DNA of 64,000 nucleotides from a virus, in the IMG/VR virus record IMGVR_UViG_3300025168_000074, positions 4,084 to 68,083 of that record; one strand, given 5' to 3'. The notes below the pieces were generated by a model. That model did not search any database and had not been told where the DNA came from. It worked only from the letters and a program-made list of their open reading frames with translations. Both the position numbers and the translations under genes were made by a program. This document shows positions 1 through 64,000 of the stretch, in pieces; positions within the stretch are counted from its first letter, which is position 1, and each line of letters starts with the position of its first letter.

Positions 1-380
1 TAACCACCCTCTGGCTCTGCGCACAATTTGGCGAGGTCGTAGAGATTCATCTCCTTTTGAAGAGAAGCTTTTTTATCTCTTTTTTTCATTGTACCGGCTA
101 ACCAGCTTCTATCCTTATCGGATACTACCCAAGCGTTCTCAAAGCTCCTTCCATCAGCACCCACGCCAGCCCCCTGGACGACGTATGTCTCTCCCAGGAT
201 ATTTCGTACTACTCCAGTGAGCTTGCCTCTAGGAATAGGCTTAGAAACGCTCTCCGTCTTAGTCTTCTTAGCATTGCTAATAGCGATAGCCACGGCTTGG
301 TCTTTTTTGCGACCTTCCCTACTCAACTTCTTAATATTAGAGGAAATTGTTTTTTTAGAGTTACCTGGCTTTAAAGGCAT
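1..380 (-). CDS. Hypothetical phage protein, partial (runs off window start)
   Basis: Not in ORF track; read by hand from ATG at 380 (TAATG overlap with upstream stop): MPLKPGNSKKTISSNIKKLSREGRKKDQAVAIAISNAKK..., open to base 1. The N-terminal motif resembles a small basic module seen in phage proteins. Confidence 0.8.
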   Translation of the reverse strand, partial: MPLKPGNSKKTISSNIKKLSREGRKKDQAVAIAISNAKKTKTESVSKPIPRGKLTGVVRNILGETYVVQGAGVGADGRSFENAWVVSDKDRSWLAGTMKKRDKKASLQKEMNLYDLAKLCAEPEGG

Positions 381-1072
381 TACTTTGATGCGGTGGTGTT
401 ACCGACAGGATTTAGCCCAGGCTTCTTCTTCTTTTTATCTCTGGGCTTTAGAGGGCTGGAGTTATTGTCCCTATCGCCATTATCTGAACCTTTAGCTTTT
501 GAGTCGCTGCCTCCGTATGCTCCGCCTGCACCTGGCTCGAATGCTTCATACTGCGCTTCCTTCTTTACTGTCTTCTTCTTAGCCATCTTCTTGAAAGTTT
601 TGGCTAGAGTTTTGGCTTTGCCAGTACAGCCTTTCTTGGTGATAGGGGTACACTTACCTTCTGTACCGCGACGCTCAATATCCTCTTCAGCACCTTGAAT
701 CCAGTTATCGCCTTTCTTCGCTTCATCGTAAGGACCGCCGACTTTTTCGTTACCCGGGTTCTCTGTATTACCTGGTTGGGAGCCGTAACTAGACATGGAA
801 CGTCCACCTTTAGTGATGGCTGTCTGGGTCTGGTTGGTAGAAAGCACCTTATCGGCATCCTTCAAGAGTTTAGCTTTGCCAACCTTCTTAGCTTTAGCTA
901 TTTTAGCTGCGGCTTTAGTGCCGCCTTTAACCCCTTGCTTAGGATAACCCTTCGAAGCGTTCTCATCAATCTTTACTTTACCACCAAACAATGTGTCTGA
1001 TACTAAAGGGTATGATTTTGACTCTGCAGGCTTGGTCATTCGTGATTCTGTAATTGTTCCAACTTTCTTCAT
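380..1072 (-). CDS. Lys/Gly-rich low-complexity hypothetical protein, possible internal head protein
   Basis: 230 aa ORF, GTATATA element just upstream on minus strand, ITE/YDE-type candidate protease sites, coupled to the next gene by TAATG. Confidence 0.7.
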   Translation of the reverse strand: MKKVGTITESRMTKPAESKSYPLVSDTLFGGKVKIDENASKGYPKQGVKGGTKAAAKIAKAKKVGKAKLLKDADKVLSTNQTQTAITKGGRSMSSYGSQPGNTENPGNEKVGGPYDEAKKGDNWIQGAEEDIERRGTEGKCTPITKKGCTGKAKTLAKTFKKMAKKKTVKKEAQYEAFEPGAGGAYGGSDSKAKGSDNGDRDNNSSPLKPRDKKKKKPGLNPVGNTTASK

Positions 1073-1126
1073 AACTTTATATACTCAGCGCACAGGGAGA
1101 ACTATATAATTATGTAAACTTAAATT

Positions 1127-1771
1127 ATGGCACCAATCCCAGCACCCTCTCCCACTTCTCTGACTGGCTACTCGGCACCGAACGCGGCTGCAGGTGGCGG
1201 TAATCAATTTCAATCCAGTGGTCCTTGTTCAGGAACTACGTGGACTCACACTCAAGATTTATTTATTGCGTACGAGGTTGTCGAAATACCACAAAACGCA
1301 GGTACTTGGTTACCTTCCACTAGCAACGTAAGCGCATTAAAGCTTACAGTGTATGGTCAAGCAGAAGACTCTTTGGATTTCTTCTCCACTAGCTCTGTTT
1401 CTGGCGCAACCGGGTGTGCCACTGCCGCTGATGCAAGACAAGCTCACGTACTAACCTTATCTTCTACCGGTGCTCTTCAAGGCATGGGTCCTGCTGGCGC
1501 GATTTACACCCTATCTGGTGGTTACGAAAGACGTTGGACACAGACTGGAGACGTTGCTCGGTCAGACAACCGAACCTACATGAACGGTTTATTTCCGATT
1601 GACGGACTTCCATCTGGTTGGAACAATGACGTAACTTTATCTAATCTCGTTGCACGTCAGATTATCGCAAGAGTAGTTAATGGAGGTATTCGTTATAGCA
1701 ATGATGGAACGACCCCTCCTGTGACAGCAGGCGATTGGGACTTAATGTACTTCGGTTTGATGGACGTCTAA
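1127..1771 (+). CDS. Hypothetical protein, probable virion structural protein
   Basis: 214 aa, S/G/T/A-rich; preceded by CTATATAAT (1102) and an AAACTTAAATT leader like the sheath and tube genes; followed by a hairpin. Confidence 0.7.
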   Translation: MAPIPAPSPTSLTGYSAPNAAAGGGNQFQSSGPCSGTTWTHTQDLFIAYEVVEIPQNAGTWLPSTSNVSALKLTVYGQAEDSLDFFSTSSVSGATGCATAADARQAHVLTLSSTGALQGMGPAGAIYTLSGGYERRWTQTGDVARSDNRTYMNGLFPIDGLPSGWNNDVTLSNLVARQIIARVVNGGIRYSNDGTTPPVTAGDWDLMYFGLMDV

Positions 1772-1787
1772 CTTAACAAGACAATAT

Positions 1788-1830
1788 AAAAAACCCAGGA
1801 GGCTTTCACTTCCTGGGTTTAGTCTTTTTA
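1788..1830. terminator. Bidirectional rho-independent terminator
   Basis: Perfect 10 bp inverted repeat AAACCCAGGA (1791-1800) / TCCTGGGTTT (1811-1820) with A-tract left and T-rich sequence right, between convergent genes. Confidence 0.8.
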
Positions 1831-1860
1831 CGGGGACCATCCCAAAGAACAAATATATAT

Positions 1861-2283
1861 TTAACCGAATAGCATTACAGACTGAGCCTCTTTAGCTTTT
1901 GGGATAGTTACGCTTAGTAACCCATCCACATAAACCACCTTAGCTTTCTTAGTGTCATATTGCTCATCTACATTAATAGAAAAATCAACATCTTTTCCGC
2001 TTATCCCACGGTGCAGCACGCAACGCGTGTCTTCCTCTGCGTTTTTTGAGGCACGTACAGTAAAGGAGTTCTTACCCCCGATAACCTTCACCTCTTTTTC
2101 CTTGTAACCCGCAAGGGCAAACTCAAAGTGTAGTGAGTTTTGGTCTTCCGATAGGTAGCAGTTGCTAACTGGGTATTTCGGCAATCTACAAGCTTCTTTG
2201 GCTTGTTGTGGTTGGAACTCCTTTTCGAAGCTCCCATGTAGCTCACTGAAGAGCCTATCAAAATGTGTAAAGTAATGATTCAT
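1861..2283 (-). CDS. hsp20: Small heat shock protein (Hsp20/alpha-crystallin family)
   Basis: KYPVSN...FEFALAGYKEKEVKV...LHRGIS...YVDGLLSVTIPK motifs; AAGGAGG upstream. Confidence 0.92.
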   Translation of the reverse strand: MNHYFTHFDRLFSELHGSFEKEFQPQQAKEACRLPKYPVSNCYLSEDQNSLHFEFALAGYKEKEVKVIGGKNSFTVRASKNAEEDTRCVLHRGISGKDVDFSINVDEQYDTKKAKVVYVDGLLSVTIPKAKEAQSVMLFG

Positions 2284-2656
2284 AATTTTTATTCCTCCTT
2301 TCGGCAGGTGTTAGAAGACTAATTATTTTATTTGTTACGTCCTCTGTTTTATGGAGGGTTTTATCCACCCCATCGATTTCGACAATCAGAGAGTACCCTG
2401 ATTTGCCAAGTGTAGCTTTATATAGAGAGGTACAGCGACGCATTAGTATGTTATACCTAGCACTGCCCTTCTCAAGCTTCTCCTTCGTTATAGTCTTGTA
2501 AGGCTCCATTTGAACATAAACTTTCTGCGACCGTACGACATGGACTGTCTGACCCTCGACGAAGTTCTTCAGGTTTCCGTGACGGACTTTGCTCGCTTCT
2601 ATCCCTTTAGGGCTAGATAATACGAGGCAGGTAATTAAAAATAGTTTATGAAACAT
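2258..2656 (-). CDS. Hypothetical exported protein, possibly short OmpH/Skp-like
   Basis: N-terminal hydrophobic segment MFHKLFLITCLVLSS; C-terminal GYSLIVE...EDVTNKII recalls the OmpH C-terminus. Confidence 0.45.
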   Translation of the reverse strand: MFHKLFLITCLVLSSPKGIEASKVRHGNLKNFVEGQTVHVVRSQKVYVQMEPYKTITKEKLEKGSARYNILMRRCTSLYKATLGKSGYSLIVEIDGVDKTLHKTEDVTNKIISLLTPAERRNKNYESLLYTF

Positions 2657-3160
2657 GTTCGGGAAAATACAAAAATGGGGTTGTTAGGGGAAAACCAGTT
2701 TCCCCCTATGGTTAACTCTCACCTCTCTACGAAAAGACACTACGCGCTTTCACAGTGTTTTGGCGCAATAGCTCAGAATAAACCATCGGTTATTTATATA
2801 TGTCCTACCAAAGGGGTTAATATTAACATCCTCCCTCTGATTATTATCAACAAAATAAAGTTTGTGCTGGTAATACCAAGTAAAAAGTTTTTTACTTTGC
2901 TGACTAAGGACGAAAAAGCAATTTTAGATTCAGCAAGCGCCTTAGCAGAAAAAATAATAATTTTAGAGACCAAGACTTCGAATCCCTTAGATTGGAATAA
3001 AGATTTGATAGCAGGAACCAAACGAGTTATAGACTCCTCAGACTGGGTAATGATAGCTCACAATCAAAATGAGGAGAACGAAGCTTTTGCAGACCTGTGC
3101 CTACAGTTCGAAGGAGACCCTACTCCGGTTTTGGAAGTTGGCTTTGGTCAGGAAGAGTAA
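2648..3160 (+). CDS. Hypothetical protein, divergent SLOG/YspA (DUF1273)-like Rossmannoid fold
   Basis: Pattern GVN...IKFVLVIP...ALAEKIIIL...KRVIDSSDWVMIAH parallels YspA-like GVD...LIAAIP...ADEVV...RNxxMVDNSDxLIAV; start may be 2675. Confidence 0.5.
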   Translation: MKHVRENTKMGLLGENQFPPMVNSHLSTKRHYALSQCFGAIAQNKPSVIYICPTKGVNINILPLIIINKIKFVLVIPSKKFFTLLTKDEKAILDSASALAEKIIILETKTSNPLDWNKDLIAGTKRVIDSSDWVMIAHNQNEENEAFADLCLQFEGDPTPVLEVGFGQEE

Positions 3161-58786: not shown

Positions 58787-59084
58787 TAAGGAACTGAATG
58801 CGGTCTTGAAACGCCGCAGAACTGATAACTTTGTTGTGCTCTACCATTCCTTATGGTGTGACTGGAGCCAACGAGCTGTAAAGTTCGCTGAAGAATGGGC
58901 AAAGAAAGAAGGTGACGAAACCATGTACGTCGTAAACAGTTGGGATTTACCTCAATCATTTTCTTCATTTTCCATTACCTCCGCACCAGCCCTTGTTCAC
59001 ATTAAGAACAAAAAAGTTAGGGTGGACGTTGAGTATCCGAAGATTTATAATTTCTTCCATTCTACTCGTCCAAAAAAGACTTAA
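58758..59084 (+). CDS. Thioredoxin-like protein (CxxS)
   Basis: FVVLYHSLWCDWS and F.ITSAPALV cis-Pro motif; ATG at 58758. Confidence 0.75.
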   Translation: MRTLKTLQTDKELNAVLKRRRTDNFVVLYHSLWCDWSQRAVKFAEEWAKKEGDETMYVVNSWDLPQSFSSFSITSAPALVHIKNKKVRVDVEYPKIYNFFHSTRPKKT

Positions 59085-59424
59085 TTTTTTTATCACGGTA
59101 TTGTTGAATCTTCTCTCTATATTTTTTATTTTTTGTATAAATTAATTTGAGATTATTAACAATAACTGTGGTAAAGTAATTAAAAGCTGAACCCTTTTCC
59201 TTAGTAAAGTTCTTTAATACTTTAAGGCATAGTACGAAACACTCCTGCTTAGCATCCTCATGTTCTACTTTAAATTTAAATGAAATCAAAATACTTGAAA
59301 TCAAAAGGTCTAACTGTTGAATAAGCTCGTCTTCGTGCTCGCTCTGATTACCCAGATAATTAAAGATTGTTTCTTCAAACTTCTTGTTATCAATATAATG
59401 CTTCTTTTTTTTGCGTTTCGCCAT
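59062..59424 (-). CDS. Late-transcription sigma factor (T4 gp55-like)
   Basis: HYIDNKKF, EDAKQECFVLCLK...NF...KGSAFNYFTTVI.N. Confidence 0.8.
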   Translation of the reverse strand: MAKRKKKKHYIDNKKFEETIFNYLGNQSEHEDELIQQLDLLISSILISFKFKVEHEDAKQECFVLCLKVLKNFTKEKGSAFNYFTTVIVNNLKLIYTKNKKYREKIQQYRDKKIKSFLDE

Positions 59425-59439
59425 AACTCATAATAGACA

Positions 59440-60411
59440 ATGGATTTAGAAAAAATAATAGAATCTTTCGATAAAGATGAAAAAACCAAAGATTACTCCT
59501 CAACCGACGTTGGTGATGAGAAAATTGTCTTTGTTACCACCTGCCAGTATAGAGAGCGTGGAAGCCTCTATGATTTCAATGACCATGAATACGGTATTAT
59601 ATCTAGCTTACTAGACCAGACCAATATACCTAAGGGTCATTATCAGTTTATACCCGCCATTCGAGAGCCGAACACAGTAGAGGATGACCTTACTACTGCG
59701 GATTACAACACGCATCGACCATTCCTCTTCGCTGATTTGGAGGAGATAAACCCAGAGCTGATTATCCCTCTTGGCAACGTAGCTTTGAAAACGTTACTTA
59801 AGAAGTCGGGACTGTTCAACAAGCGAGGTAGAGAGTTTACTTACGAAGAGTGTCCGGTCGTACCTACATACAGTTCCGACCTAGTATTTTTGGAGCCTAA
59901 GCTACGCAAGCTATTCATTCAGGATGTAAACAACGCTTACGATAAGTTTATCTTAGATAAAAATAAGTTCGATGGTTCAAAATATGTTTTATGCCAAACC
60001 ATCGAGGAGTTTAATAAGCAGATGGATATAGCTGAGCAATACACTGCATTAGGATGTGACATAGAAACCACAGGTTTAGATTTCAAGAAAGACGAAATGT
60101 CTACAATTGCTATAGCCTCTGGAGAACAGCAAGCATTTACTGTCCCTATTAATCACAGGGAAAGTCCTTTCGATGATAAAGATAAAAAAGTTATCAAAGA
60201 AAGATTAGCTGCCTTAATGGCAAACAAAAGCATCGAGAAAATTTTTCATAACTGCCAATTTGATATTAAATTCATGAAGACCTTCGGGATAAATGAGTTT
60301 CATAACATTGGAGATACGAAAATTATGCACTCGCTACTCGATGAAAACCTTCCTCACGGTCTAATGGATTTAGTGAAGGAGTACTTCCCCCAAGAATTGG
60401 AGAAATTTTAA
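59440..60411 (+). CDS. DNA polymerase A, N-terminal part: degenerate UDG-like domain plus incomplete 3'-5' exonuclease
   Basis: INPELIIPLGNVALK...KRG...PVVPTY (UDG family 4-like); ExoI DIETTG, ExoII HNCQFD, DTKIMH; ends before ExoIII. Confidence 0.88.
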   Translation: MDLEKIIESFDKDEKTKDYSSTDVGDEKIVFVTTCQYRERGSLYDFNDHEYGIISSLLDQTNIPKGHYQFIPAIREPNTVEDDLTTADYNTHRPFLFADLEEINPELIIPLGNVALKTLLKKSGLFNKRGREFTYEECPVVPTYSSDLVFLEPKLRKLFIQDVNNAYDKFILDKNKFDGSKYVLCQTIEEFNKQMDIAEQYTALGCDIETTGLDFKKDEMSTIAIASGEQQAFTVPINHRESPFDDKDKKVIKERLAALMANKSIEKIFHNCQFDIKFMKTFGINEFHNIGDTKIMHSLLDENLPHGLMDLVKEYFPQELEKF

Positions 60412-61391
60412 TGATTACAGTAGATTACATATGGTTAGATGGCTCGCAAGATATGCCACAATTACGTTCAAAGACTCGCGTTTTTGATAAACCCCACGCA
60501 CTTCCCGAATTACCTGATTGGTCGTTTGACGGAGGTAGTACCCATCAAGGATGTGTTGGTGATTCAGACCGAACCCTACACCCTGTGCGTTTATATAAGA
60601 ACCCTTTTAGCGAAGGCAATTACTTGGTATTATGTGAGGTCAATAACCCTGATGGGACTCCCCACGAGACAAATCAGCGCCATAATCTACGCACTCAAAT
60701 AGAGAAGGGTGGTAGCTCTCCTTGGTTTGGGTTTGAGCAAGAGTATACTTTAACTGACCCAATGCAACAGCCCCTTGTGCCTGAGGAGATTACACAAGGA
60801 GAATTTTACTGTGGCATCGGAGCCGGTAGGGTTATTGGGAGGTTAGTAGCCGAGGAACACCTTAAAAATTGCTATGACGCAGGTATCACCTTGTTCGGCA
60901 ATAATGCAGAGGTCATGATTTCTCAGTGGGAATACCAAACCAATCCTAAGGAAGCCTTAGATGCTGCTGATGATTTGTGGATGGCTCGGTATATTATGGA
61001 GCGAGGTACGGAGAAATTCAACATGCGAGTCTCTTACCACCCTAAAATCTATAAGGAACTGAACGGTGCTGGTTGCCATGTAAATGTTTCGACTGAAAAA
61101 ACACGCGAAAGCCTTACTTCAAAAGAGACTGCGGAGATAATGAAGAAGTTTGAGAAAACTCACGACGAACATATTACTGTTTATGGTGATGGAAACGAGT
61201 TGCGTTTGACTGGAGAACACGAAACTTCAAGTTTTGATAAGTTTACGTGGGGTGTTTCTGACCGTAGCGCAAGTGTGCGGATTCCGGCTCATGTCGTACA
61301 ACAACAACAAGGTTATTTTGAGGACCGTCGTCCTGCTGCAACCTGCGACCCTTACAAAGTTACCTCTCGCATTATAAAGACGTTAAGCTAA
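60411..61391 (+). CDS. glnII: Glutamine synthetase type II
   Basis: YIWLDG, LRSKT, WSFDGGST, FGFEQEY, EVMISQWEYQ, NGAGCH, RLTGEHET, R.ASVRIP, YFEDRRP. Confidence 0.95.
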   Translation: MITVDYIWLDGSQDMPQLRSKTRVFDKPHALPELPDWSFDGGSTHQGCVGDSDRTLHPVRLYKNPFSEGNYLVLCEVNNPDGTPHETNQRHNLRTQIEKGGSSPWFGFEQEYTLTDPMQQPLVPEEITQGEFYCGIGAGRVIGRLVAEEHLKNCYDAGITLFGNNAEVMISQWEYQTNPKEALDAADDLWMARYIMERGTEKFNMRVSYHPKIYKELNGAGCHVNVSTEKTRESLTSKETAEIMKKFEKTHDEHITVYGDGNELRLTGEHETSSFDKFTWGVSDRSASVRIPAHVVQQQQGYFEDRRPAATCDPYKVTSRIIKTLS

Positions 61392-61579
61392 TGCTCAGAA
61401 GTAACTTACCACCTCAACAAAAAGAACGGGCGTCCGCGACATTAAAACAGATATTAGAGACTATAATACAGATAGGGCAAGCAACCCAACAAGACTATTT
61501 ATCTAACAGTAAATACTCTAATCTTATGTTTGATATTGGACATTTAATACAGGAGCTAGACTATGCTGACCGTAACTAA
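61391..61579 (+). CDS. Small hypothetical protein
   Basis: 62 aa, TAATG-coupled to glutamine synthetase, overlaps next start. Confidence 0.6.
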   Translation: MLRSNLPPQQKERASATLKQILETIIQIGQATQQDYLSNSKYSNLMFDIGHLIQELDYADRN

Positions 61580-63077
61580 CGGTGGAAACTTTGACTGGGC
61601 TAATATGCCCTTGGATGACATGGCGTTGGGAAACGCCATGGACGCCGATTTTACTCTACGAGCTTATAACGCTATGACTAGCGATATGCAAAGTAAGGGT
61701 GTTAACCATGTCTACGACAAACTACTCAGAGACATTCTGGTCGTTGCATCAAATATAGAACACAAAGGTATTCTTGTAGATGGTGAGTGTGTTAAAAAGT
61801 TTGACGTGCTTCTTACGAAGGAAGTAGCTGAGCTGTATACCAAGCTTTCTGAGTTATCTGTTATTGATGATGTTAATCCTAACTCTAATTCAGACATGGG
61901 GTTACTTCTATTTACTAAGGAAGGTTTTGGTTTAAGAGCGCTTGAGTTTTCTAAGAAAACAAAAGCAGCATCTATTACTGAGGCTCACCTCAAGAAAGTA
62001 GCTGTTACCGCTACAGGAGATGCAAAGGAATACATCGAGCTTTTGCTAAAGTATAAAGGACGTGTTAAGCAACATAAAACCTATGTAAAGGGTGTGGAGA
62101 AAGCCGTAGCATATAACGAGGACGGACGAGTTTACTCAAGTTACAATTTCGGTAACGTAGTAACCGGTCGACTCAGCTGCTCCACATATTCAGTAGGAAA
62201 AGAACGTAAGGGTATTTCCTTTCACACGTTACCACGCCCTGATGAAAATGATGCAGTTAATCTACGTAGTATGATGACGGCAGATGAAGACAAAGTTTTT
62301 GTTGCGGCTGACTTCTCTCAAGCAGAGTTGCGCGTACTTGCACAATGCTGCAAAGATAAAAACCTTATCGAAGCATTTAACACCGGGCAAGACTTACATA
62401 GGTTTACTGCGTCCTTAGTGTTTGGCAAAAAGCCTGAAGACGTAACCAAGCAAGAAAGACAGATTGCTAAAAGCGTTAGCTTTCTTATCGTGTATGGAGG
62501 AGGTCCCAACAAACTTGCTGAACAAATCGGTAAAGATATAGGTTATTGTAAAAATATTTTTCGGGCTTATCAAGATTCATTCCCTAAAGTTTTTGACTGG
62601 ATTAATTTTGTTCATAAGTTTGTTAAAGCTAATGGGTACGCCGTAAGTATTTTTGGACGTCGAAGACACTTACCCAACGTAAAGAGCCCTAACCGCAAAT
62701 ATCAGTACAGAGCTCTACGCCAAGGGATGAATTTTGTAATTCAAAGCTCTGCGTCTGACCTCATGCTCCACTCTATCTTACGGTTAAATAAGTACTTAGC
62801 TGCGACAGGGCTGGATGCACAAATTCTAGCGACTGTACACGACTCCGTGGAAGTGCAGTGTTCTAGGAAAGATTTATCTAAAACGGTTGAGTTAATGAAG
62901 TACGTGTTACAAAGCACAGATGATTTTAAAGGATTATACGGCTTAGATTTTATTGTACCTTTTGAGGTCGATGTTGAAGCAGGTAAGTCTTTCGGGGATA
63001 TGATTGATGTGGAGTTTGATTCCGCGGGACAGTTCCTAAATAAAAAGGAGATTATAAATTATGTCGACAACAGCTAA
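61563..63077 (+). CDS. polA: DNA polymerase A, C-terminal part: ExoIII helix plus polymerase domain
   Basis: GNAMDAD (ExoIII), TGRLS, motif A DFSQAELRVLA, motif B RQIAKSVSFLIVYG, motif C TVHDSV; AGGAG upstream. Confidence 0.93.
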   Translation: MLTVTNGGNFDWANMPLDDMALGNAMDADFTLRAYNAMTSDMQSKGVNHVYDKLLRDILVVASNIEHKGILVDGECVKKFDVLLTKEVAELYTKLSELSVIDDVNPNSNSDMGLLLFTKEGFGLRALEFSKKTKAASITEAHLKKVAVTATGDAKEYIELLLKYKGRVKQHKTYVKGVEKAVAYNEDGRVYSSYNFGNVVTGRLSCSTYSVGKERKGISFHTLPRPDENDAVNLRSMMTADEDKVFVAADFSQAELRVLAQCCKDKNLIEAFNTGQDLHRFTASLVFGKKPEDVTKQERQIAKSVSFLIVYGGGPNKLAEQIGKDIGYCKNIFRAYQDSFPKVFDWINFVHKFVKANGYAVSIFGRRRHLPNVKSPNRKYQYRALRQGMNFVIQSSASDLMLHSILRLNKYLAATGLDAQILATVHDSVEVQCSRKDLSKTVELMKYVLQSTDDFKGLYGLDFIVPFEVDVEAGKSFGDMIDVEFDSAGQFLNKKEIINYVDNS

Positions 63078-64000
63078 AGTAGTTATTTTAACGGACCTGC
63101 ATTTACGTGCAGATTACTTCCCAGGATTCTTAGACAGACAAGTAGAAACCTTACTTCATTTAGCTAATAGAAAGCGTTGCGACTACGTCGTGATTAATGG
63201 AGATGTGTTTGAAAGACGTAACCCTCGAAGCGAAGAGCTTTTAGCGTTCGGATATTTGTTAGATAATATTAAATGTAAAAATATTATCGTTAATAGAGGT
63301 AACCACGACACCCTACGTAAAGATGGTACTTCTGACACTATCCTATCTTTGTTCTCTGAGAAGGCTCGCATCGTTAAGGATACTGAAACCATACGCCTTG
63401 GCGAAATTGATTTTGATTTTATCCCTCATTACGAAGATGAAGATATAATAATCGCTGACTTAAAGAAAAATAAAAATCCTGTGTTTGGTCATTTTGGATT
63501 TGACGGCTGTGTGTCTAACGGACACTACGCATACGAGGCTCGTGTAAAACAATGGCACTTTAAGAAAAAACCTTATGCTTTTCTAGGTCATATACACAAA
63601 CCTAAAATCTACGGAAACGTAGTTATCATGGGCACTGCCTACTCTAACACTTTCGGTGAAGCTAATGCTACCAAGTTTGTGCATGAGTTAGTATTGCGCG
63701 GACAAGAGATAGAGCTTATTAAGAAGCCGATAGGTAAAGGGATTAAGCATATCGTAGGTACCATAGACGAAATACCTGACCTTGCTAAGAAGCATAAGTT
63801 TGAGGATTTCTTCACCATACTCAGAGTTAAGATGGATAAGCTGGACTCGTACACCGAACAAAGGTTACGTGACGAGATTTTCGCAGAGTATCCTATACAG
63901 AGCTTGGAGCTTGTTTTCGAAGATGTGCTTCCCAAGTTTGAGTCAGGGTACATCCCGAAGAACCGCATATTCAGTTTAGATGATACAGTTATTGATGAGT
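63061..64000 (+). CDS. Metallophosphoesterase nuclease (gp47/SbcD/Mre11-like), partial
   Basis: Not in ORF track; from ATG 63061: TDLH, GDVFE, GNHD, FGH, LGHIH; open to window end; AGGAG upstream. Confidence 0.92.
   Translation, partial: MSTTAKVVILTDLHLRADYFPGFLDRQVETLLHLANRKRCDYVVINGDVFERRNPRSEELLAFGYLLDNIKCKNIIVNRGNHDTLRKDGTSDTILSLFSEKARIVKDTETIRLGEIDFDFIPHYEDEDIIIADLKKNKNPVFGHFGFDGCVSNGHYAYEARVKQWHFKKKPYAFLGHIHKPKIYGNVVIMGTAYSNTFGEANATKFVHELVLRGQEIELIKKPIGKGIKHIVGTIDEIPDLAKKHKFEDFFTILRVKMDKLDSYTEQRLRDEIFAEYPIQSLELVFEDVLPKFESGYIPKNRIFSLDDTVIDE

What the first reader, a model, noticed from the sequence alone, without database searches (positions are those of the whole stretch)
59440..63077. 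Family A DNA polymerase split through its proofreading active site, with other genes in the break
Seen: ORF 59440-60411 holds ExoI (DIE) and ExoII (HNxxFD) and stops at LVKEYFPQELEKF*. ORF 61563-63077, 1.15 kb later with its own AGGAG, begins MLTVTNGGNFDWANMPLDDMALGNAMDADFT, the continuation containing the ExoIII Asp (YAAED-equivalent, Tyr replaced by Gly), then intact motifs A/B/C. The halves abut with little apparent loss; no intein residues are present and the gap is fully coding, leaving no room for a self-splicing intron. Established: the exonuclease site needs carboxylates from ExoI, II and III. Inference: a two-subunit PolA whose proofreading site forms only on assembly, so fidelity could depend on subunit ratio.
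Basis: partly seen in the sequence, partly recalled or inferred. Interest (0 to 1): 0.85.

Follow-up and report, generated by a model that had tools for sequence, protein, structure and literature searches.

The report
Phage DNA polymerase split inside proofreading domain
This uncultured marine tailed phage, like a large group of its relatives, encodes its only recognisable DNA polymerase as two separate genes cut through the proofreading domain, and the gap between them is a slot where unrelated genes such as a glutamine synthetase come and go.

Summary
ORF 59440-60411 (UDG-like domain plus ExoI and ExoII) and ORF 61563-63077 (ExoIII helix plus the polymerase domain) are two halves of one family A polymerase. 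They abut on profile coordinates (PHROG 17: 556-785 and 793-1248).

It is not a misassembly or a decaying gene. All 28 close relatives that carry both halves break at the same residue. So do 54 more distant IMG/VR loci. dN/dS is 0.02-0.07. Contigs from three DNA studies bridge both junctions.

The gap content varies: nothing (a TAATG overlap), GSII, ThyX, a PD-(D/E)XK nuclease or small ORFs. Many relatives carry a second cut in the thumb, giving three genes.

The ExoIII tyrosine is glycine in 29 of 29 split sequences and tyrosine in 13 of 16 fused relatives.

A complex model scores 0.91 against a best control of 0.00. This may reflect likeness to solved single-chain enzymes.

Best reading: an old gene fission produced an obligate multi-subunit polymerase with a composite exonuclease site. 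Ratio-dependent fidelity is unsupported.

Split PolAs are known (S-SBP1, LUZ24), so this is a new variant. The scan has noted the same kind of split in other genomes.

The parts
59440..60411 (+). PolA N subunit (323 aa): degenerate family-4 UDG-like domain (about residues 27-167) plus the first two thirds of the 3'-5' exonuclease domain
   Evidence: Pfam DNA_pol_A_exo1 4-134/173. The profile search against PDB hits family-4 UDGs over residues 27-167 and Klenow chain 6-112 over residues 181-286.
60058..60066 (+). ExoI carboxylates D207 and E209 (D-I-E)
   Evidence: Invariant in 20 of 20 and in the 59-sequence family alignment.
60250..60264 (+). ExoII N271...D275 (H-N-C-Q-F-D)
   Evidence: N271 and D275 are invariant in 20 of 20. 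D275 is nearly invariant in A3.
60409..60413 (+). TAATG: the N-subunit stop overlaps the GSII start by one base
60411..61391 (+). Cargo gene in the break: full-length type II glutamine synthetase (326 aa)
   Evidence: Gln-synt_N and Gln-synt_C. (E 2e-87 to 3fky, residues 2-324). Present in some relatives and absent in others.
61391..61579 (+). Cargo ORF of 62 aa, function unknown; overlaps the C-subunit start by 17 nt
   Evidence: No Pfam or PHROG match. dN/dS 0.27-0.56.
61551..61555 (+). AGGAG ribosome-binding site, 7 nt before the C-subunit ATG
61563..63077 (+). PolA C subunit (504 aa): ExoIII helix, linker, thumb, palm and fingers
   Evidence: DNA_pol_A 274 bits. Aligned to Klenow chain 162-583.
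61629..61643 (+). ExoIII equivalent G23-N-A-M-D27 (Klenow Y497...D501), with Gly in place of the Tyr
   Evidence: alignment. G23 and D27 are invariant in 16 of 16. Gly in 29 of 29 split sequences, Tyr in 13 of 16 fused relatives.
62310..62333 (+). Polymerase motif A (D250-F-S-Q-A-E-L-R)
   Evidence: Invariant; aligned to Klenow DYSQIELR.
62457..62498 (+). Polymerase motif B (R299...F307...Y311-G312); Phe at the Klenow F762 position
62835..62846 (+). Polymerase motif C, V-H-D-S (Ser where Klenow has E883)

Best explanation
An ancient gene fission cut a UDG-fused family A DNA polymerase inside its 3'-5' exonuclease domain. The cut lies in the length-variable surface loop between ExoII and ExoIII. 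The phage therefore makes two proteins. The N subunit carries the UDG-like domain, ExoI and ExoII. The C subunit carries the ExoIII helix and the polymerase domain. The first ~65 residues of the C subunit complete the exonuclease fold of the N subunit, and the two dock into one enzyme. Three of the four exonuclease carboxylates come from one chain and the fourth from the other. Once the gene was cut, the intergenic joint became a tolerated slot. Cargo genes (type II glutamine synthetase, ThyX, a PD-(D/E)XK nuclease, small ORFs) are gained and lost there. Here the four genes N, GSII, orf62 and C are packed with overlapping stops and starts and are most likely expressed as one operon. Shown here: the anatomy, the conservation of the break, the purifying selection and the variable cargo. 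Inferred: physical assembly, retained exonuclease activity and co-transcription.
For: The halves abut on profile coordinates (785|793; Klenow about 472|475). The same break was found in 28 of 28 close loci that hold both halves. An in-frame stop and an ATG were checked in 21 of 21. The break recurs in 54 further IMG/VR loci with N frames of 323-421 codons (L043, L053, L072, L073, L082 and L088 are cut by an end of the locus), of which 48 show the downstream piece or pieces. In the 50%-identity representative library the best 64 hits are all 361 aa or shorter. Apart from fragments, they end where the query ends. Fused proteins of 780-1300 aa appear only from E about 1e-26. No close fused form turned up in a search restricted to longer proteins (1 hit, a bacterial Pol I at 35% identity). 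The 50 split N parts form one clade against 11 fused ones (SH-aLRT 100). dN/dS is 0.02-0.07 for N, C and GS where it could be computed, and dN is 0.03-0.13 across the 40+40 codons at the new termini. ExoI, ExoII and the ExoIII Asp are invariant. Complex model: ipSAE 0.91, 0.91 and 0.86, best of 3 controls 0.00. The mark was reached by 58 of 80 solved complexes and 2 of 110 mismatched pairs. The runs agree in at least 89% of contacts and partner pLDDT is at least 85. The interface is C 12-67 on N 203-319. Contigs of three DNA studies bridge both junctions, and none of 4 runs shows a form that skips the gap. No PolB or DnaQ-type exonuclease is on the 68-kb record. No intron RNA family was found. 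There are no extra residues that could be intein halves.
Against: No experiment shows that the two proteins bind or that the exonuclease is active. The complex score may come from the model's memory of single-chain Pol I structures, and my own alignments were used, so the calibration holds only roughly. The ExoIII tyrosine is glycine in every split sequence examined, so proofreading could be weakened or lost. The record is only 62% complete by CheckV, so another polymerase could lie off the contig. The read evidence is from assembled contigs, which drop rare variants and cannot show transcripts. X1 may be the sample the window was assembled from. The outgroup in the tree consists of long branches, so a single origin is likely but not proven.
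Confidence: 0.8

Rival explanations
1. The exonuclease is a catalytically dead scaffold. The two proteins still assemble, because PolA needs its exo domain for stability, but the enzyme does not proofread. The split and the Tyr-to-Gly change both reflect relaxed constraint on that site.
For: Gly replaces the ExoIII Tyr in 29 of 29 split sequences, against Tyr in 13 of 16 fused relatives. The UDG-like domain of the window's clade is also eroded: its Pfam UDG score is 19.7 bits, below the cut-off of 24.3, and the Cys motifs of the wider family consensus are absent.
Against: D207, E209, D275 and C-part D27 stay invariant down to about 27% identity. This is unexpected for a dead site. From recall, not from a call: Klenow Tyr497 substitutions reduce exonuclease activity but do not abolish it.
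Confidence: 0.12
2. A single polypeptide is restored after transcription or translation, by a split intein, trans-splicing, a self-splicing intron or ribosomal bypass.
For: Phage polymerase genes are often interrupted by introns, inteins and homing endonucleases (passages read in PMC10580990 and PMC2988022).
Against: The halves abut on the profile with no spare residues for intein halves. The gap holds conserved, selected protein genes (dN/dS of GS 0.05-0.07). The gap content varies from 0 to 3.7 kb. No Rfam intron family matches at E<=1. In L026 the two genes overlap as TAATG in different frames. An RNA-library contig runs unspliced across the N/GS junction.
Confidence: 0.03
3. Assembly artefact or a recently broken gene.
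For: The window is a metagenome-assembled, incomplete contig. One relative, L034, does carry several frameshifts.
Against: The same break is seen in dozens of contigs from many samples. Contigs from three studies bridge both junctions. Selection is strongly purifying.
Confidence: 0.01

Closest known systems
Single-chain UDG-PolA phage polymerases (N4-like cluster 17; SPO1, SP-10, SP-15 type), Czernecki et al. 2023, PMC10201439 (abstract, sections 28, 31, 32 and 34 passages read)
   Same: Same domain order: family-4 UDG-like domain, 3'-5' exo, pol. Phe at the motif B position. The best INPHARED matches of the N part are SP-10 and SPO1-like Bacillus phages at 27-32% identity. Fused environmental relatives at 23-29% identity carry the same VHDS motif C.
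   Different: Those are one polypeptide of about 800-900 aa and keep the ExoIII Tyr (13 of 16 fused relatives). Here the chain is cut between ExoII and ExoIII and the Tyr is Gly.
Split exo/pol PolA of S-SBP1-like T7-like cyanophages (Czernecki et al. 2023, section 32 read in full)
   Same: A family A polymerase turned into two genes by fission. Assembly was inferred from a structure prediction. The new termini were taken to be solvent-exposed.
   Different: There the cut lies between a complete exo domain and the pol domain, the two genes overlap and nothing lies between them. The authors call it the first such case in PolAs. Here the cut is inside the exo domain, the active site is shared by two chains, cargo genes occupy the joint, and a second cut occurs in the thumb in many relatives.
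LUZ24-like Pseudomonas phages (Bruynoghevirus): gp25 exonuclease subunit, gp34 'part II', gp36 (record NC_010325; table passages of PMC3890496)
   Same: A PolA in several genes with unrelated genes between the pieces: eight genes between gp25 and gp34, and an endonuclease VII gene between gp34 and gp36.
   Different: By my reading of the translation, gp25 carries ExoI, ExoII and a Y-x3-D ExoIII, so it is a complete exonuclease domain. The LUZ24 cut is therefore between the domains, not through the site. There is no UDG-like domain.
Caulobacter phage Kuura (OQ067476): Kuura_029 / 027-028 / 026
   Same: A cultured phage with the same kind of break. Kuura_029 is a 369-aa protein with a UDG domain (Pfam 56.9 bits) and ExoI and ExoII. 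Two small genes follow. The annotated DNA polymerase then begins with the ExoIII helix.
   Different: Identity to the window's halves is only 23-24%. It is a podovirus of 43 kb and keeps the ExoIII Tyr. The passages I read of its paper (PMC9959647) mention only 'a DNA polymerase', not the split. Its Supplementary Table S1 could not be seen.
Split family B polymerases of phages: gp43A/43B of Aeromonas phages 25 and 44RR (review PMC2988022, passages read) and PhiKZ DNAP-N/DNAP-C (preprint PMC13648687, abstract read)
   Same: A replicative polymerase in two genes, sometimes with a homing endonuclease or an untranslated spacer between them. The pieces co-purify and are active, and PhiKZ forms a 1:1 complex solved by cryo-EM. 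This shows that such fissions can give working enzymes.
   Different: A different polymerase family. I did not compare the positions of the cuts with the exonuclease motifs.

Membership tests
Family A DNA polymerase (Pol I type) | Match to the DNA_pol_A profile above the curated cut-off | tested here: met
   C part 274.3 bits against a cut-off of 34.3, profile 5-380 of 381. Klenow E 7e-50.
Family A DNA polymerase (Pol I type) | Motifs A, B and C with the two catalytic aspartates | tested here: met
   D250 (motif A) and D427 (motif C) are invariant and align to Klenow D705 and D882. Motif C is VHDS, not VHDE.
Family A DNA polymerase (Pol I type) | Exo and pol domains on a single polypeptide | tested here: not met
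   Two ORFs 1.15 kb apart. The split is conserved.
DEDDy 3'-5' exonuclease domain (DNA_pol_A_exo1) | Four carboxylates: ExoI D and E, ExoII D, ExoIII D | tested here: met
   D207, E209 and D275 on the N part and D27 on the C part are all invariant. They lie on two chains.
DEDDy 3'-5' exonuclease domain (DNA_pol_A_exo1) | ExoIII tyrosine four residues before the Asp (Y-x3-D) | tested here: not met
   Gly23 aligns to Klenow Tyr497. Gly in 29 of 29 split sequences.
DEDDy 3'-5' exonuclease domain (DNA_pol_A_exo1) | Exonuclease activity | not testable with these tools
   Needs an enzyme assay.
UDG-PolA (family-4 UDG fused to PolA) | N-terminal family-4 UDG fold before the exo domain | tested here: met
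   The profile of A1 hits family-4 UDG structures (1l9g, 1vk2, E about 2e-6) over residues 27-167. The single-sequence Pfam score is below the cut-off (19.7 against 24.3). Relatives carry PF03167.
UDG-PolA (family-4 UDG fused to PolA) | UDG catalytic and Fe-S residues | tested here: inconclusive
   The wider family consensus has C-x-G-C and A-A-V-K-C-P. The window's clade reads differently at these places. No residue-level mapping onto a solved UDG was done.
Split-intein or intron-interrupted polymerase gene | Intein halves at the new termini or a structured intron RNA in the gap | tested here: not met
   No spare residues (785|793). No Rfam hit at E<=1 other than a chance CRISPR-DR match. The gap is coding.
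Split exo|pol PolA (S-SBP1 type) | Cut between a complete exo domain and the pol domain, genes overlapping | tested here: not met
   The cut is between ExoII and ExoIII. Here 1.15 kb of cargo lies between the halves.

The most novel reading that the evidence does not exclude
The cut and the invariant Tyr-to-Gly change belong together, and the exonuclease site has been rebuilt around the new chain ends. The N subunit usually ends in a hydrophobic residue (Leu or Phe in 37 of 59). By ungapped extension of the Klenow alignment, this residue falls within one position of Klenow Phe473. By recall, Phe473 packs on the 3'-terminal base. Gly at the Tyr497 position would make room for this free C-terminus. 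Proofreading would then exist only in the assembled enzyme and could be switched by association or dissociation of the UDG-exo subunit. That would give these phages a replicase with a detachable editing module, and in most relatives a third, detachable thumb piece.
Probability: 0.12. Interest if true: 0.8.

Novelty: new variant of a known kind. Interest (0 to 1): 0.6.

Why it matters
Family A polymerases are textbook single-chain enzymes. The one paper I found that treats PolA splitting as a phenomenon (PMC10201439) describes only a cut between domains and calls it the first case. Here a large, diverse clade of ocean phages carries a replicase whose proofreading site is shared between two polypeptides. 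The clade spans at least 64 clusters at 50% identity, and sequences come from Tara, JGI, ENA and Logan. In most members a third polypeptide carries the thumb. This bears on three things.

- **Annotation.** The N subunit is currently labelled 'hypothetical' or 'uracil-DNA glycosylase family 4'. PolA-based surveys of virioplankton would record these polymerases as lacking an exonuclease.
- **Enzyme engineering.** The break points are natural sites for making split polymerases.
- **Genome evolution.** A fission joint inside an essential gene serves as a stable landing pad for metabolic cargo such as GSII and ThyX.

The invariant loss of the ExoIII tyrosine gives a direct biochemical question to test.

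Tried and rejected
**Searches that found no close relative.** No near or distant DNA match exists in INPHARED. The best protein matches there are 27-32% identical and fused. No cultured close relative was found in that collection.

**Split intein or intron.** Rejected.

**Misassembly or pseudogene.** Rejected.

**Programmed frameshift.** Considered for the relatives in which the pieces overlap. The overlaps are TAATG or ATGA stop-start junctions with the next piece starting at its own ATG or GTG. I read these as separate, coupled genes. No slippery-site analysis was done.

**Promoter and terminator scan of 58900-64000.** Promoter-like sites were no more frequent than in shuffles (9 against a mean of 12.1). 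No terminator-like site lies on the + strand. This says nothing firm about transcription.

**Read laying.** The RNA-library run X20 covers only 59896-60887 plus the far end. That is no evidence about expression of the rest. One joint (61624 to 61909, one contig, side 27, in X6) was set aside as probably another organism or a repeat.

**dN/dS.** Synonymous sites were saturated, with dS not computable, in 4 of 6 N pairs, 4 of 6 C pairs and 4 of 6 GS pairs. Ratios come only from the remaining pairs.

**GS literature.** Nothing there bears on this locus.

**Claims about what is in print.** These rest on searches only. Supplementary Figure S2 of PMC10201439 and Table S1 of PMC9959647 may hold relevant rows that I could not see.

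**Rows dropped.**
- In one search I aligned 28 of the roughly 75 split loci and 16 of the 25 fused ones, chosen to span the identity range.
- In one search I used 50 split and 11 fused rows and left out near-duplicates and loci cut by contig ends.
- Some loci are the same contigs as loci: L040=L005, L041=L019, L042=L016, L051=L022.


Full report
**What is there.** The window is positions 4084-68083 of a 68,083-bp linear IMG/VR virus record that CheckV rates 62% complete. It encodes terminase, portal, major head protein, tail sheath and baseplate wedge, so it is a contractile-tailed phage. At its right end lie four + strand ORFs:
- 59440-60411, 323 aa
- 60411-61391, 326 aa
- 61391-61579, 62 aa
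- 61563-63077, 504 aa

An SbcD-like gene follows.

Pfam finds the 3'-5' exonuclease family DNA_pol_A_exo1 in the first ORF, but only profile positions 4-134 of 173, together with a weak UDG match. It finds DNA_pol_A positions 5-380 of 381 in the fourth ORF. Against PHROG 17 the first ORF covers profile 556-785 and the fourth covers 793-1248. The two are consecutive pieces of one polymerase with almost nothing missing.

The second ORF is a full-length type II glutamine synthetase, with E 2e-87 to yeast Gln1 (3fky) over residues 2-324. The third has no match.

The junctions are tight. The N stop and the GS start share TAATG. The GS stop and the orf62 start share one base, and orf62 overlaps the C start by 17 nt. 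AGGAG lies 7 nt before the C-part ATG. No terminator-like site lies on the + strand in between.

**Where the cut lies.** D207 and E209 (ExoI) and N271 and D275 (ExoII) are invariant in an alignment of 20 N parts, all of which end at the same residue. The C parts all begin M-L-T-V and carry an invariant G23-N24-x-M26-D27. A profile alignment to the Klenow fragment puts G23 on Tyr497 and D27 on Asp501. The N part aligns to Klenow chain 6-112 over residues 181-286.

The cut is therefore between ExoII and ExoIII, at about Klenow residues 472-475 by ungapped extension (inference). In fused relatives this stretch is the most length-variable part of the alignment, as expected of a surface loop. One detail differs: motif C reads VHDS, not VHDE. 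That holds for 22 of 22 further split relatives and 8 of 13 fused relatives examined, so it is a lineage trait.

**Is it real?** A scan of IMG/VR with the C part gave 37 loci. In the 28 that hold both halves, the N-part match ends at query residue 323 and the C-part match starts at residue 1. I read the junctions of 21 of them. All 21 have a stop directly after the last N codon (19 TAA, 1 TAG, 1 TGA) and an ATG at the C start.

A second scan with a 59-sequence family alignment gave 80 loci.
- 54 of them (L040-L093) have an N-type open frame of 323-421 codons (six shorter ones, L043, L053, L072, L073, L082 and L088, are cut by an end of the locus).
- 48 of these 54 show the downstream polymerase piece or pieces.
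- 24 of the other 26, at 23-36% identity (29% or less where the UDG-like domain also matches), are single open frames of 628-1240 codons.

In the library of 1.84 billion representatives the N part has 2172 hits. The best 64 are all 361 aa or shorter and, fragments aside, end where the query ends. The first long protein (835 aa) appears at E 1.4e-26. A search restricted to longer proteins found only one hit, a bacterial Pol I.

dN/dS against relatives is 0.044-0.051 (N), 0.020-0.034 (C) and 0.049-0.068 (GS) in the pairs where dS was not saturated. The 40+40 codons at the new termini have dN 0.03-0.13.

Logan contigs add support. Contigs from three studies bridge the orf62/C junction, and those from two of them also bridge the N/GS junction:
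- X1: 60360-60869 and 60840-63100, with no differences
- X2: 60318-505 and 61068-678
- X6: 61375-678

A contig from an RNA library (X20, 60005-60767) crosses the N/GS junction unspliced. None of the 4 runs shows a form that skips the gap. X1 may be the source sample. Contigs cannot show transcripts or rare variants.

**The gap is a cargo slot.** Between the halves the relatives carry:
- GSII plus orf62
- GSII alone
- GSII plus an 84-85-aa ORF
- an 80-aa ORF alone
- ThyX (Pfam Thy1, 147 bits)
- GSII plus ThyX plus a 659-aa ORF
- a PD-(D/E)XK nuclease (PDDEXK_11, about 100 bits; L024, L050, and by similarity L053)
- a DUF3310 protein
- nothing at all (L026, TAATG)

Among the 48 more distant loci the next piece starts 0-12 nt after the N stop in 27, at least 173 nt after it in 20, and could not be placed in 1. 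The other genes in the break are therefore passengers, not part of the design.

The free-standing nuclease in some gaps recalls splits in T4-like phages that are associated with homing endonucleases (review passages, PMC2988022). Whether such an element made the original cut is inference.

**A second cut.** In L026, L027, L029 and L033 the C part is itself two ORFs of 157 and 371 aa with an ATGA overlap. Of the 48 loci, 29 have this three-piece form, 13 are two-piece like the window, and 6 are undetermined. The cut falls at the same homologous place in both three-piece groups. On the alignment it lies at the gap between Klenow residues 620 and 621.

On a quick maximum-likelihood tree of N parts the 50 split rows form one clade (SH-aLRT 100) against 11 fused rows. 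The three-piece state needs at least two changes. The fused outgroup sits on long branches, so a single origin of the exo cut is likely but not proven.

**Does it assemble, and does it proofread?** The complex prediction with my alignments A1 and A2 scored 0.91, 0.91 and 0.86, against 0.00 for the best of 3 controls. The mark was reached by 58 of 80 solved complexes and 2 of 110 mismatched pairs. The runs agree in at least 89% of contacts, and partner pLDDT is at least 85. C-part residues 12-67 touch N-part residues 203-319. These are halves of a fold with many solved single-chain structures, so the pass may be from likeness and does not show binding.

The four carboxylates are conserved across the whole clade. 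But the ExoIII tyrosine is glycine in 29 of 29 split sequences examined, while 13 of 16 fused relatives have tyrosine. Of the other three, one has Arg there, one was not covered and one was unclear. I cannot say what, if anything, replaces it.

No PolB and no DnaQ-type exonuclease are on the record, which is incomplete.

**Comparison with what is known.**
- Czernecki et al. 2023 (PMC10201439; abstract, section 32 in full and further passages read) describe UDG-PolA fusions. [quoted passage not shown]
- The LUZ24 record annotates an exonuclease subunit and two polymerase parts with genes in between. Its exonuclease subunit contains ExoI, ExoII and a Y-x3-D ExoIII by my reading, so it is cut between domains.
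- OM43 phages MEP401 and MEP402 are cut inside the pol domain (PMC10580990, passages).
- Split family B polymerases assemble and work (PMC2988022 passages; PMC13648687 abstract).
I checked it. Kuura_029 (UDG, 56.9 bits, plus ExoI and ExoII), two small genes, then Kuura_026 beginning with the ExoIII helix with its Tyr kept. Identity to the window's halves is 23-24%. The passages I read of its paper do not mention the split.

My literature searches found no description of a PolA cut between ExoII and ExoIII. Supplements were closed. The scan itself has reported the same kind of split in other genomes.

**Verdict.** The two-subunit reading is well supported by comparative and modelling evidence but has no experimental test. 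The ratio-dependent fidelity idea is unsupported. This is a new variant of a known kind, the split PolA. Its distinguishing features are a cut through the exonuclease site, a conserved Tyr-to-Gly change, a cargo slot at the joint and a frequent third piece.

Noticed in passing
window 60411-61391: Full-length type II (eukaryote-like) glutamine synthetase in a marine myovirus, under purifying selection (dN/dS 0.05-0.07). It is present in many relatives but not all. It is a likely nitrogen-assimilation auxiliary gene.
   Followed up: partly
L026:6001-7586, L027:3661-5246, L029, L033, and 29 loci: A second conserved cut of the polymerase in the thumb region gives a three-gene PolA (N about 330 aa, M about 160 aa, C about 360-370 aa). 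The stop and start overlap (ATGA, or GTG starts).
   Followed up: partly
window 61629-61631 (C-part G23): The ExoIII tyrosine is glycine in every split sequence examined and tyrosine in most fused relatives and in phage Kuura. No replacement residue was identified.
   Followed up: partly
window 62835-62846: Polymerase motif C reads VHDS, with Ser at the Klenow E883 position and an invariant Glu two residues on. This is shared with most fused UDG-PolA relatives.
   Followed up: partly
L024:5550-6032, L050:8154-8630, L053:805-1305: A free-standing PD-(D/E)XK nuclease (Pfam PDDEXK_11) sits in the break in some relatives. It is possibly a homing-type endonuclease linked to the origin or turnover of the slot.
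   Followed up: partly
L021:574-1254, L023:1595-2329, L045:6972-7670, L049:6770-7447, L050:7447-8157, L022:3252-3989: ThyX (flavin-dependent thymidylate synthase) occupies the same slot in another subclade. Pfam confirmed it for L045 only; the others are assigned by similarity of the N-terminal sequence.
   Followed up: partly
window 61391-61579: A 62-aa ORF is conserved in a subset of relatives, with weaker constraint (dN/dS 0.27-0.56) and no family match. It overlaps the C-subunit start by 17 nt.
   Followed up: partly
window 59440-59960: The UDG-like domain of the window's clade scores below the Pfam cut-off. It lacks the Cys-containing motifs seen in the consensus of the wider split family (C-x-G-C, A-A-V-K-C-P).
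   Followed up: partly
window 59062-59424 (- strand): A 120-aa ORF with a weak sigma-70 region 2 match lies head-to-head with the N subunit, 15 nt away. This arrangement is conserved in nearly all close relatives.
   Followed up: no
L034:3-1544: One relative has the C part broken into three frames near homopolymer runs. This is probably sequencing error rather than biology.
   Followed up: no
L058:7079-7927: Within an otherwise three-piece group, this locus shows the M and C regions in one open frame up to the end of the locus. It is possibly a healed or never-cut thumb junction.
   Followed up: no
L119:5764-9045 versus L118: Two near-identical fused-type relatives differ. L118 has one 783-codon frame. 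In L119 the frame stops after 425 codons and the polymerase match resumes 1.2 kb later, which suggests an insertion.
   Followed up: no
L120 (LUZ24) 1-3076: LUZ24 carries glutamine-related genes (GFAT, a RimK-like ligase, a gamma-glutamyl cyclotransferase) just upstream of its split polymerase module. This is probably coincidental.
   Followed up: no
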